This document shows, in pieces, positions 15,301 through 18,300 of a DNA stretch of 64,000 nt. The number at the start of each line of letters is the position of its first letter. Position 1 is the stretch's first letter. Source of the DNA: Escherichia coli (GTDB lineage Bacteria > Pseudomonadota > Gammaproteobacteria > Enterobacterales > Enterobacteriaceae); the NCBI RefSeq assembly GCF_003790525.1, contig NZ_CP033635.1, one strand, 5' to 3'. Position numbers: made by a program.

Positions 15301-18300
15301 GGTCACTTCGATGCTGGTCTGGATTTTTGCCAACAAAGTCTTCGCGCCTGCCCAACCAATCAGGAAGTGCTTTGCCTGCATAATCTGCTGCTGGTGTTAA
15401 GTGGTCGTCAGGACAACGCGCGTTTGCAGCGCGAGAAACTGCTGCGCGATTATCCGCTGAACGCCACTCTGTGGTGGCTGAACTGGTTCGATGGTCGTAG
15501 CGAATCAGCCCTCGCGCAGTGGCGCGGTCTGTGTCAGGGACGCGACGTTAACGCCCTGATGACCGCCGGGCAACTGATTAACTGGGGAATGCCTACCCTG
15601 GCGGCAGAGATGCTGAACGCACTGGACTGCCAGCGCACGCTGCCGCTTTATCTGCAGGCGAGTTTATTGCCGAAAGCCGAACGCGGCGAACTGGTCGCAA
15701 AAGCCATTGATGTCTTCCCGCAGTTTGTCCGTTTCCCGAATACGCTGGAAGAAGTGGCGGCGCTGGAGAGTATTGAAGAGTGCTGGTTTGCCCGTCATTT
15801 ATTGGCCTGCTTCTACTACAACAAGCGTAGCTACGGCAAAGCCATTGCCTTATGGCAACGTTGCGTAGAGATGTCGCCGGAGTTTGCCGACGGCTGGCGC
15901 GGGTTAGCGATCCATGCGTGGAATAAGCAACACGATTATGAGCTGGCCGCGCGTTATCTTGATAATGCTTATCAGCTTGCGCCGCAGGATGCACGTCTGC
16001 TTTTCGAACGGGATTTGCTGGATAAGTTAAGTGGAGCCACACCGGAGAAACGACTGGCGCGTCTGGAAAATAATCTGGAAATTGCGCTGAAACGCGACGA
16101 CATGACCGCAGAACTGCTCAATTTGTGGCATCTCACGGGTCAGGCAGACAAAGCGGCGGACATTCTCGCCACGCGCAAATTCCACCCGTGGGAAGGCGGG
16201 GAAGGGAAGATCACCAGTCAGTTTATCCTCAACCAGTTATTACGCGCCTGGCAGCATCTTGATGCCAGAGAGCCGCAGCAGGCCAGCGAACTGCTTCATG
16301 CCGCGCTGCATTATCCGGAGAATTTAAGCGAAGGCCGTTTACCGGGGCAAACTGATAACGACATCTGGTTCTGGCAGGCGATATGCGCCAACGCGCAGGG
16401 AGATGAAACTGAAGCGATGCGTTGTTTACGTCTGGCGGCGACTGGCGATCGCACCATTAACATTCACAGTTATTACAACGATCAGCCGGTTGATTATCTC
16501 TTCTGGCAAGGAATGGCGCTGCGACTGCTGGGCGAACAACAAATCGCACAGCAACTGTTTAGTGAAATGAAACAGTGGGCGCAAGAGATGGCGAAAACCA
16601 GTATTGAGGCGGATTTCTTTGCTGTTTCACAACCTGACCTGTTGTCGCTGTATGGCGATTTACAACAGCAGCATAAAGAAAAATGCCTGATGGTGGCGAT
16701 GCTGGCGTCCGCGGGACTCGGGGAGGTTGCGCACTATGAATCTGCTCGCGCTGAATTGACGGCGATTAATCCGGCCTGGCCGAAAGCGGCATTATTCACC
16801 ACTGTGATGCCTTTTATTTTTAACTACGTTCACTAAACCCTATTAACTGTAATATTTGAGCGGCACGCGCTGCCGCTCACGCTCAAATAATTAAAATAAG
16901 CCGTTGTAAATAAAAACCCTACAGGAGGCACTATGCCTAAAAAAATGAGAACAACCCGTAATCTATTATTAATGGCTACGCTATTAGGTAGCGCACTATT
17001 TGCCAGGGCTGCGGATAAAGAAATGACCATTGGCGCAATATACCTTGATACCCAGGGATATTACGCTGGCGTGCGTCAGGGTGTTCAGGATGCGGCAAAA
17101 GATTCTTCAGTACAGGTACAGTTAATTGAAACTAACGCCCAGGGTGATATTTCGAAAGAAAGTACCTTTGTTGATACCCTCGTGGCGCGTAATGTCGATG
17201 CCATTATTTTATCGGCAGTGTCTGAAAATGGCAGTAGCCGTACCGTTCGTCGCGCCAGTGAAGCGGGTATTCCGGTGATTTGCTACAACACCTGTATTAA
17301 TCAAAAAGGCGTCGATAAATATGTCTCGGCGTATCTGGTCGGCGATCCGCTGGAATTTGGTAAAAAACTGGGTAATGCTGCCGCCGATTATTTTATTGCC
17401 AACAAAATTGACCAGCCGAAAATTGCCGTCATCAATTGCGAAGCCTTTGAAGTTTGTGTGCAGCGACGTAAAGGGTTTGAAGAAGTATTAAAAGCCCGCG
17501 TTCCCGGCGCGCAAATTGTCGCTAATCAGGAAGGGACTGTTTTAGATAAAGCGATTTCCGTTGGTGAAAAACTAATTATCTCCAGGCCGGATCTCAACGC
17601 CATTATGGGTGAATCGGGCGGAGCGACACTCGGCGCGGTAAAAGCGGTACGTAATCAAAATCAGGCCGGAAAAATTGCTGTTTTCGGTTCGGATATGACC
17701 ACTGAAATTGCTCAGGAGCTGGAAAACAATCAGGTGCTGAAAGCGGTAGTGGATATTTCCGGCAAGAAAATGGGCAATGCTGTTTTCGCGCAAACATTGA
17801 AGGTTATCAATAAACAAGCCGACGGTGAAAAAGTGATTCAGGTGCCTATCGATCTCTATACCAAAACGGAAGACGGTAAACAGTGGCTGGCAACGCACGT
17901 TGATGGTCTGCCCTAATCGCTGATTCGCAGAGGTCCCTATGTTCACGGCAACAGAGGCAGTCCCGGTAGCAAAAGTGGTGGCAGGAAATAAGCGTTATCC
18001 CGGCGTCGTTGCGTTGGATAACGTTAACTTCACGCTCAATAAAGGCGAAGTTCGTGCGCTGTTAGGCAAAAACGGCGCGGGCAAATCGACCCTCATTCGA
18101 ATGCTTACCGGTAGCGAACGTCCGGATAGCGGTGATATCTGGATTGGCGAGACGCGACTGGAAGGTGACGAAACTACGCTGACTCGCCGTGCCGCTGAAC
18201 TGGGGGTTCGTGCGGTTTATCAGGAATTAAGTCTGGTGGAAGGGCTGACGGTGGCGGAAAACCTCTGCCTCGGTCAGTGGCCCCGCCGCAACGGCATGAT

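What the first reader, a model, noticed from the sequence alone, without database searches (positions are those of the whole stretch)
16852..16889. Intra-operon hairpin between yphG and yphF
gagcggc-acgcgct-gccgctc sits within a longer atttgag...ctcaaat inverted repeat in the 96-nt yphG-yphF spacer, with no T-run. It may be an mRNA stability or processing element that decouples expression of the large yphG from the transporter genes.
Basis: seen in the sequence. Interest (0 to 1): 0.15.

Follow-up and report, generated by a model that had tools for sequence, protein, structure and literature searches.

The report
Conserved stem-loop between yphG and yphF

Summary
The core hairpin is real: TGAGCGGCA-CGCGC-TGCCGCTCA at 16857-16879. 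It has 9 bp and about -16 kcal/mol, and starts 20 nt after the yphG stop in a 96-nt spacer with no T-run.

- **Distribution:** it is single-copy in 5411 of 5426 complete E. coli genomes. Its 7-bp core, GAGCGGC/GCCGCTC, is invariant at the same position in about ten other enterobacterial lineages, while the loop varies.
- **The "longer" repeat:** it does not enclose the hairpin. Its left arm overlaps the core's left arm, so the two helices compete. Its right arm (CGCTC, 16880-16884) is a derived allele in about 29% of E. coli; K-12 has TCACA.
- **What it is not:** a REP element, an Rfam family, or a canonical intrinsic terminator.
- **Best reading (confidence about 0.4, inferred):** a sense-strand RNA stem-loop that acts as a 3' exonuclease barrier or processing boundary between yphG and yphFEDCB.
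- **Context:** 5-8 nt upstream lies a copy of the palindrome (ACTAAAC-N3-GTTTAGT type) found between yphH and yphG. This is probably the operator of the uncharacterised ROK repressor YphH. The spacer may therefore also be an internal control region.

No transcript-end data for this locus were found. Interest is low.

The parts
16857..16879 (+). Core stem-loop TGAGCGGCA-CGCGC-TGCCGCTCA (9 bp, 5-nt loop). The 7-bp core GAGCGGC/GCCGCTC is conserved across Enterobacteriaceae.
   Evidence: -16 kcal/mol; invariant in 15 sequences; one copy per genome in 5411 of 5426 E. coli.
16853..16862 (+). Left arm (TATTTGAGCG) of the allele-specific alternative helix. It overlaps the core's left arm.
   Evidence: I1; competing fold at -16.1 against -15.9.
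16880..16889 (+). Right arm (CGCTCAAATA) of the alternative helix. Positions 16880-16884 are a 5-nt polymorphic cluster, CGCTC here and TCACA in K-12. The CGCTC form also creates a tandem CGCTCA-CGCTCA.
16829..16851. Operator-like quasi-palindrome TTCACTAAAC-CCT-ATTAACTGTA overlapping the yphG stop codon. It is a copy of the yphH-yphG palindrome.
   Evidence: The same site is present in Citrobacter and Raoultella, and it is a perfect palindrome in Ewingella and Rahnella.
13439..13461 (.). 23-bp palindrome TTCACTAAAC-CTT-GTTTAGTTAA in the yphH-yphG divergent region, 2 nt from the yphH start. It is the putative YphH (ROK repressor) operator.
   Evidence: one match in 64 kb, 0 expected. (conserved in 7 genera). 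(yphH annotated NagC-like). (PF00480 ROK).
16886..16899 (+). Remnant of the A/T-rich box that follows the hairpin at a fixed 13-14 nt in other genera (ATGTTTAGAATATGTGAAAT). It contains the -10-like TAAAAT at 16892-97, which is TAGAAT in K-12.
16837..16932 (+). The 96-nt yphG-yphF spacer. The Shine-Dalgarno sequence AGGAGG lies at 16923-28.

Best explanation
The element is a locus-specific RNA stem-loop in the untranslated spacer of the yphG-yphFEDCB transcript.

Shown:
- It is stable.
- It is single-copy.
- It sits at a conserved 20-21 nt after the yphG stop.
- Its stem is conserved across genera while its loop is not.
- It has no U-tract.

Inferred:
- RNA polymerase reads through it.
- In the sense mRNA it acts as a structural barrier. 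After endonucleolytic cleavage in the A/U-rich tract downstream, it would block 3'-to-5' exonucleases and so protect the yphG segment. The yphG and transporter parts of the message could then have different lifetimes.
- A weak pausing or termination contribution is possible.

The outer inverted repeat seen in this window is a derived allele that creates a competing fold. It is not part of the conserved device.
For: - Folding: -16.0 to -16.1 kcal/mol in E. coli, z -3.3 to -4.1. The same hairpin folds in 9 orthologues at -12.7 to -25.4.
- Position and stem are conserved in 15 sequences. Loop sequence and length (6-7 nt between core arms) vary.
- All four one-sided stem changes give G.U on the + strand. 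They would be A.C on the - strand. Closing pairs swap U-A with C-G and A-U with C-G.
- E. coli population SNPs sampled fall in the loop only.
- There is no T-run and no terminator call.
- The hairpin is followed by about 40 nt of A/U-rich unpaired sequence.
- Other genera carry a second hairpin just before the yphF ribosome-binding site whose arm sequences differ between lineages while pairing is kept (seen by eye, not counted). The layout there is hairpin, A/U box, hairpin, which is typical of processing sites.
- Ewingella and Rahnella carry an unrelated but strong hairpin at the analogous place (z -6.1 and -4.2), with one compensatory G-C to A-U change.
Against: - No experimental 3' or 5' ends for this locus were found.
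- Covariation is not significant: 48 of 500 shuffles reach the observed score, and the RNAalifold covariation term is -0.11.
- A stem that is invariant in sequence, not only in structure, is also what a protein-binding palindrome would show.
- The element is flanked by DNA-level signals, an operator copy and a -10-like box.
- Four lineages have 26-33-nt spacers without it, so it is dispensable.
- In about 29% of E. coli a competing helix is tolerated.
Confidence: 0.4

Rival explanations
1. This is a DNA-level reading. The spacer is an internal, YphH-controlled promoter and operator region for yphFEDCB. The GC palindrome is then part of the promoter-proximal DNA (initial transcribed region or insulator), not a functional RNA hairpin.
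For: - A copy of the yphH-yphG palindrome overlaps the yphG stop codon, 5-8 nt before the hairpin. These are the only two matches in 64 kb, with 0.03 expected over all loci searched. The two-site layout holds in Escherichia, Raoultella and C. amalonaticus; Ewingella and Rahnella have a perfect palindrome at the yphG stop.
- A recurrent sigma70-like arrangement, TTCACT-N16-AATATT with an upstream TG, coincides with the operator. It scores 8.9 in E. coli, and 5.4-7.2 at the same place in eight other lineages (Budvicia has a related TTTACT-N15-TAATTT, 7.1).
- A -10-like TAGAAT/TAAAAT sits at a fixed 13-14 nt after the hairpin in most genera.
- YphF protein is induced on levoglucosan while YphG is not listed, which is a weak hint.
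Against: - Neither candidate promoter passes the tool's scan.
- The score of 8.9 is only at about the 95th percentile of the background.
- The -35-like hexamer is also fixed by the yphG C-terminal codons, and the -10-like hexamer by the operator itself.
- The TAGAAT candidate has no -35.
- A start near 16863 would not explain why the right arm is invariant.
- G.U-only stem changes point to RNA pairing.
Confidence: 0.25
2. It is a weak or decaying intrinsic terminator, or a pause hairpin, that partly separates yphG from yphF transcription.
For: - The G+C-rich stem and 5-7-nt loop are terminator-like.
- Some orthologues have T-rich tails: Citrobacter GCCGC-TTTTCCTG and GCCGC-TTTCTTCG, RIT691 AGTTTTCG, and Pluralibacter, BIGb0383 and bin27 GTTTCAG.
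Against: - In all Escherichia the tail is ATCACAAAAT, ACGCTCAAAT or ATTGCCAAAT, with 1-2 T in the first 8 nt.
- It is not called by the scan.
- Half of the other lineages also lack T-rich tails.
- No 3' end is reported here in the Term-seq tables held, though the operon may simply be silent.
Confidence: 0.15
3. The palindrome GAGCGGC-N6/7-GCCGCTC is a sequence-specific binding site for a dimeric protein (DNA or RNA), which would explain why its sequence never varies.
For: - Five central pairs are invariant in 15 sequences, from lineages whose YphG is only about 68% identical. The loop and flanks vary.
- The distance to the downstream A/T box is fixed.
Against: - Half-site spacing varies by 1 bp, 13 against 14, between lineages.
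- One-sided changes are wobble-compatible only.
- I could not match it to any known factor's site, and that check is from memory, not a test.
- Yersiniaceae use an unrelated hairpin sequence at the analogous place.
Confidence: 0.1
4. It has no function. The hairpin would be a neutral remnant carried along within a conserved cassette.
For: - The cassette is absent from four lineages.
- Escherichia has already lost the second hairpin and the ATG of the A/T box.
- A competing allele is common.
Against: A neutral 23-nt sequence would not stay invariant across genera whose synonymous sites are saturated while its own loop changes. It is also retained in 5411 of 5426 E. coli genomes.
Confidence: 0.1

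Closest known systems
Intercistronic stabiliser hairpins of polycistronic transport operons (malE-malF and hisJ-hisQ REP stem-loops; Rhodobacter puf intercistronic hairpins). Recalled from established literature.
   Same: A stable stem-loop without a U-tract, sitting in an untranslated gap inside an ABC-transporter operon just beyond the upstream stop codon. It is expected to block 3' exonucleases and set different levels for the upstream and downstream cistrons.
   Different: It is not a REP: there is one copy per genome and no REP consensus. It follows a large cytoplasmic-type gene (yphG), not the binding-protein gene. No stability data exist.
Rho-independent (intrinsic) terminators
   Same: A G+C-rich 7-9-bp stem with a 5-7-nt loop, placed right after a stop codon.
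   Different: Escherichia has no U-tract, and the downstream gene lies in the same orientation 53 nt further on with its own strong Shine-Dalgarno sequence. Only some orthologues have T-rich tails.
NagC/Mlc-type ROK repressor operators (PMC4288165). This concerns the adjacent palindrome, not the hairpin.
   Same: A 23-bp A/T-rich quasi-palindrome next to a divergently transcribed ROK repressor gene, with a second copy elsewhere in the regulated locus.
   Different: Positions +/-5,6 are TA/TA, not the invariant TT/AA of NagC and Mlc sites. YphH is uncharacterised and has a divergent linker. Binding is untested.

Membership tests
Intrinsic terminator | G+C-rich stem with a 3-8-nt loop | tested here: met
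   9 bp with 6 G-C pairs and a 5-nt loop.
Intrinsic terminator | U-tract (at least about 5 T in 8 nt) directly after the stem | tested here: not met
   The tail is CGCTCAAA in the window and TCACAAAA in K-12. The scan of 13000-23000 does not list it.
REP/BIME elements | Many dispersed copies per genome | tested here: not met
   One place per genome in 5411 genomes with an 11-nt-word blastn search. The window has one match. A metagenome scan of the Citrobacter-type version found it outside the yph locus only twice: once inside an unrelated coding region and once in an unidentified context.
REP/BIME elements | REP consensus (about 35-nt imperfect palindrome with a conserved GTAG/CTAC end) | tested here: not met
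   By direct reading of 16850-16892 there is no GTAG/CTAC, and the palindrome is 23 nt. The consensus is recalled from the literature.
Rfam RNA families | Match reaching a family's gathering score | tested here: not met
   The best overlapping hits score 14-20 bits against gathering scores of 47-88, with E values of 0.6-4.
Intercistronic mRNA stabiliser or processing hairpin | Stable stem-loop in an untranslated gap between co-oriented cistrons, beyond the stop-codon ribosome footprint | tested here: met
   It starts 20 nt after TAA, and this distance is conserved at 20-21 nt. Folding gives -16 kcal/mol.
Intercistronic mRNA stabiliser or processing hairpin | Demonstrated 3' ends at the hairpin and a longer half-life for the upstream segment | not testable with these tools
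   No ends for this locus appear in the held supplements.
Structured RNA under selection | Compensatory covariation in the stem | tested here: inconclusive
   Four of 10 pairs never vary, and 3 have double changes, all at the edges. The covariation score is reached by 48 of 500 shuffles. All one-sided changes give G.U.
ROK-family operator (adjacent palindrome) | About 23-bp quasi-palindrome beside a ROK repressor gene | tested here: met
   13439-13461 has 1 mismatch to a perfect palindrome. yphH is annotated NagC-like and hits ROK PF00480.
ROK-family operator (adjacent palindrome) | NagC/Mlc signature TT/AA at +/-5,6 | tested here: not met
   The site has TA at -6,-5 and TA at +5,+6, compared with the rule quoted. 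It is therefore not a NagC or Mlc site; a YphH-specific site remains possible.
Sigma70 promoter in the spacer | -35 and -10 hexamers at 16-18 bp spacing | tested here: inconclusive
   The tool scan calls none. With my own approximate matrix the best candidate scores 8.9, about the 95th percentile of the background.

The most novel reading that the evidence does not exclude
The hairpin is the centre of a conserved 80-140-nt regulatory cassette made of a YphH-type operator, an invariant GC palindrome and an A/T box. The cassette would split the yph locus into two separately YphH-controlled units. The invariant palindrome would be read by a sequence-specific factor, or would couple read-through from yphG to initiation at an internal yphF promoter. 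In about 29% of E. coli a single 5-nt, possibly templated, substitution has turned it into a bistable fold that could alter that coupling.
Probability: 0.15. Interest if true: 0.4.

Novelty: new member of a known kind. Interest (0 to 1): 0.17.

Why it matters
The yph locus is an uncharacterised sugar-type ABC transporter with a DUF5107 protein, a dehydrogenase, an epimerase and the third, unstudied ROK repressor of E. coli.

If the hairpin sets the ratio of yphG to transporter expression, it is one more example of segmental mRNA stability inside an operon. That would be useful for annotation, but it is not new biology.

The more useful by-product is a concrete, testable operator prediction for YphH, with two sites per locus. 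A second by-product is a natural pair of alleles (CGCTC and TCACA) that differ in whether the conserved hairpin or a competitor helix forms.

Tried and rejected
- **Rfam scan of 16000-17800 at E up to 10:** only noise.
- **Dispersed repeat or mobile element:** rejected. There is one copy per E. coli genome. The metagenome scan found only yph junctions plus two unrelated matches, one of them inside a coding region.
- **Outer helix as a conserved extension:** rejected. By eye on alignment A2, the flanking TAATNTTT and (A/G)A(A/G)AT segments show no consistent pairing across lineages, and only the 7-bp core is in the RNAalifold consensus.
- **Sigma54, sigma24 and CRP sites:** considered by eye only, against consensus sequences recalled from memory; the spacing or half-sites do not fit.
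- **Minus-strand ORF 16833-17030 (65 aa) as the constraint on the stem:** rejected, because loop length varies by 1 nt between lineages.
- **Leader peptide starting at the ATG of the A/T box in other genera (MFRICEI...):** no Shine-Dalgarno sequence at a usable distance and no consistent stop, and E. coli has ATA there. Left as a note.
- **Literature:** four transcript-end datasets were searched for yphF, yphG or their K-12 coordinates without result. One further paper had no held supplement. A multi-gene-name search returned nothing.
- **HG versus GF similarity beyond the operator** (yphG ribosome-binding region against the left arm of the hairpin): seen by eye, but not the best local alignment, so not pursued.

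Full report
**Locus.** The window carries the E. coli yph locus on the + strand.
- yphH lies on the - strand and ends its 5' side at 13437.
- yphG runs from 13555 to 16836. The raw ORF list starts it at a TTG at 13462; RefSeq uses the ATG at 13555, giving 1093 aa.
- yphF is at 16933-17916, followed by yphE and yphD.
- The yphG-yphF spacer is 16837-16932, which is 96 nt.

**The observation.** The stated sequence is there.
- GAGCGGC/GCCGCTC extends to a perfect 9-bp stem, TGAGCGGCA/TGCCGCTCA, at 16857-65 and 16871-79 with a 5-nt loop.
- A second inverted repeat, TATTTGAGCG/CGCTCAAATA (16853-62 and 16880-89), is also present. Its left arm shares TGAGCG with the core's left arm, so the two helices cannot both form and the core does not "sit within" it.
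- RNAfold gives -16.1 kcal/mol for the outer form and -15.9 for the core in this window (z = -3.3). Pair probabilities are about 0.64 and 0.35.
- No T-run follows, and the terminator scan does not call the site.
- Perfect hairpins of this size are rare here. The window holds 8 distinct ones, most of them obvious terminators; Markov shuffles gave a mean of 1.5 calls against 15 raw calls observed.

**Variation within E. coli.**
- A 211-nt query finds the junction in 5416 of 5426 complete genomes, and a 36-nt hairpin query finds it once per genome in 5411. It is never on plasmids.
- Alignments show two main alleles that differ at five adjacent bases, 16880-16884. These are CGCTC (this window) and TCACA (K-12, O157). 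There is also an A/G difference at 16894.
- About 1578 genomes carry the window type and about 3216 the K-12 type.
- E. whittamii and the divergent E. coli representatives E69 and SCPM-O-B-8794 have TCACT, and E. albertii has TTGCC, so CGCTC is derived.
- The CGCTC change creates both the 10-bp outer repeat and a tandem CGCTCA-CGCTCA. That suggests one templated event, but this is inference only.
- In the K-12 allele the core hairpin is essentially the only fold: -16.0, z = -4.1, probability about 1.0.
- The other SNPs I sampled lie in the loop.

**Other genera.**
- A scan with YphF returned 24 Enterobacterales loci with an assessable upstream region, all with yphG directly upstream of yphF.
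- In Escherichia, Enterobacter spp., Pluralibacter, Phytobacter, Citrobacter, Raoultella and Entomohabitans the core GAGCGGC-N6/7-GCCGCTC lies 20-21 nt after the stop codon.
- In the 15-sequence alignment five central pairs never vary. All one-sided changes give G.U on the + strand, and the closing pairs swap U-A with C-G and A-U with C-G. Loop sequence and length vary.
- Covariation is not statistically significant (48 of 500 shuffles), and RNAalifold's covariation term is -0.11.
- The hairpin folds in the orthologues at -12.7 to -25.4 kcal/mol; in Raoultella ornithinolytica the core is degraded and a different fold of -10.8 forms.
- Four lineages have 26-33-nt spacers lacking the whole cassette.
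- Non-Escherichia spacers are about 140 nt. They add a conserved A/T box (ATGTTTAGAATATGTGAAAT) at a fixed 13-14 nt after the hairpin, and a second hairpin whose arm sequences differ between lineages, before the ribosome-binding site.
- Escherichia keeps only TTAGAATAAG or TTAAAATAAG from that box and has lost the second hairpin.
- Ewingella and Rahnella have an unrelated strong hairpin at the analogous place.

**What it is not.**
- There is no Rfam match.
- It is not a REP or any dispersed repeat.
- It is not a canonical intrinsic terminator in Escherichia, although some orthologues have modest T-rich tails.

**An unexpected neighbour.**
- The 10-mer TTCACTAAAC that overlaps the yphG stop codon (16829-38) also begins a near-perfect 23-bp palindrome, TTCACTAAAC-CTT-GTTTAGTTAA, at 13439-13461. 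That palindrome is 2 nt from the yphH start codon.
- A degenerate pattern, ACTAAAS-N3-RTTWAST, hits the 64-kb window only at these two places. In the other loci it hits only at the yphH-yphG region and the yphG stop codon (0.03 expected overall). The pattern was derived from some of these sites, so only the remaining hits are independent.
- Ewingella and Rahnella have a perfect palindrome at the yphG stop.
- The yphH-yphG palindrome is conserved in seven genera, including those without a hairpin.
- Local alignment of the two regions within a genome picks out the operator, with 2-16 of 500 shuffles scoring as well.
- yphH encodes the third, uncharacterised ROK repressor of E. coli.
- NagC and Mlc sites are 23-bp quasi-palindromes too, but have TT/AA at +/-5,6, whereas this one has TA/TA.
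- I therefore read both sites as putative YphH operators. The second one ends 5-8 nt before the hairpin.

**Mechanism.**
- The sense-strand G.U pattern, loop freedom, conserved distance from the stop codon, lack of a U-tract and the A/U-rich tail together favour an RNA stem-loop. It would act on the read-through transcript as a 3' exonuclease barrier or processing boundary (confidence about 0.4).
- The operator copy and two weak promoter-like arrangements keep an internal YphH-controlled promoter alive as a rival at about 0.25. The arrangements are TTCACT-N16-AATATT, score 8.9 or roughly the 95th percentile of background, and CTGCCG-N16-TAAAAT.
- The two readings are not exclusive.
- A leaky terminator (0.15), a protein-binding palindrome (0.1) and no function (0.1) remain.

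**Experimental data.** No experimental transcript ends for the locus were found. A proteomics paper reports YphF induction without listing YphG, which is only a hint.

**Verdict.** The core hairpin is real and conserved, and it is a new, unannotated member of a known kind of element. The "longer repeat" is a polymorphic competitor helix. Interest is low, and the YphH operator prediction is the most useful by-product.

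Noticed in passing
window 13439-13461 and 16829-16851: The near-perfect 23-bp palindrome TTCACTAAAC-CTT-GTTTAGTTAA lies next to the yphH start, and a degenerate copy overlaps the yphG stop codon. 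Both are conserved across Enterobacteriaceae and Yersiniaceae. They are probably the operator of the uncharacterised ROK repressor YphH.
   Followed up: yes
window 16880-16884, 16894, 16908, 16930: Two spacer haplotypes circulate in E. coli. A block of five adjacent differences (CGCTC against TCACA) looks like a single templated event. It creates a tandem CGCTCA repeat and a 10-bp inverted repeat at the same time.
   Followed up: partly
window 16788-16821: A terminator-like hairpin, GGCATTATTCACCACTGTGATGCC, plus TTTTATTTTT lies inside the last 50 nt of yphG, where the T-run encodes F-I-F. It is probably chance, since termination there would leave yphG without a stop codon.
   Followed up: no
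window 16835-16842 and 16914-16921: The 8-nt direct repeat AAACCCTA brackets the 79-nt cassette of operator half-site, hairpin and A/T box. The 26-33-nt spacers of Citrobacter sp. 18056, Lelliottia and others resemble the product of a deletion between such repeats.
   Followed up: partly
window 16557-16566 and 43228-43237 (- strand): Two further exact copies of the operator half-site TTCACTAAAC lie inside coding regions, without a palindromic partner. Eight matches with at most 1 mismatch were found in the window, against 3.1 expected.
   Followed up: no
L018, L020, L021, L026, L013, L015-L017 spacers (about 60-110 nt after the yphG stop): A second hairpin sits between the A/T box and the yphF ribosome-binding site. 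Its arm sequences differ between lineages while pairing is kept, for example CTGCGGCA/TGCCGCAG, CGGCGG/CCGCCG and CAGCG/CGCTG. It is absent from all Escherichia.
   Followed up: partly
L018, L020, L021, L026, L013, L015, L016: A/T box after hairpin 1: The conserved box begins with ATG and reads M-(F/Y)-(R/K)-I-(C/S)-(E/K). Three lineages run in frame into yphF and others stop after 11-21 codons. There is no properly spaced Shine-Dalgarno sequence, and E. coli has ATA instead of ATG. Its status as a leader peptide is doubtful.
   Followed up: partly
L001 (E. coli EC24, NZ_CP182191.1) about 2555-5054: An IS1, aph(3')-Ia and IS26 block is inserted at the very end of yphG. It replaces the spacer and downstream sequence in this strain.
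   Followed up: no
L074 (E. coli P276M): The sequence upstream of the hairpin is strongly divergent or rearranged and no yphG is annotated there. yphF is marked frameshifted, yet the hairpin itself is intact.
   Followed up: no
window 13462 vs 13555: The mechanical ORF for yphG starts at a TTG at 13462 (1124 aa). RefSeq annotates the ATG at 13555 (1093 aa), which leaves a 117-nt yphH-yphG control region.
   Followed up: partly
window 12204-12227: The perfect 10-bp hairpin AAAGGCTTCC-TTCG-GGAAGCCTTT lies downstream of yphH. It matches the strong 3' end reported antisense to yphH at K-12 positions 2684070/71 in the Term-seq tables.
   Followed up: partly
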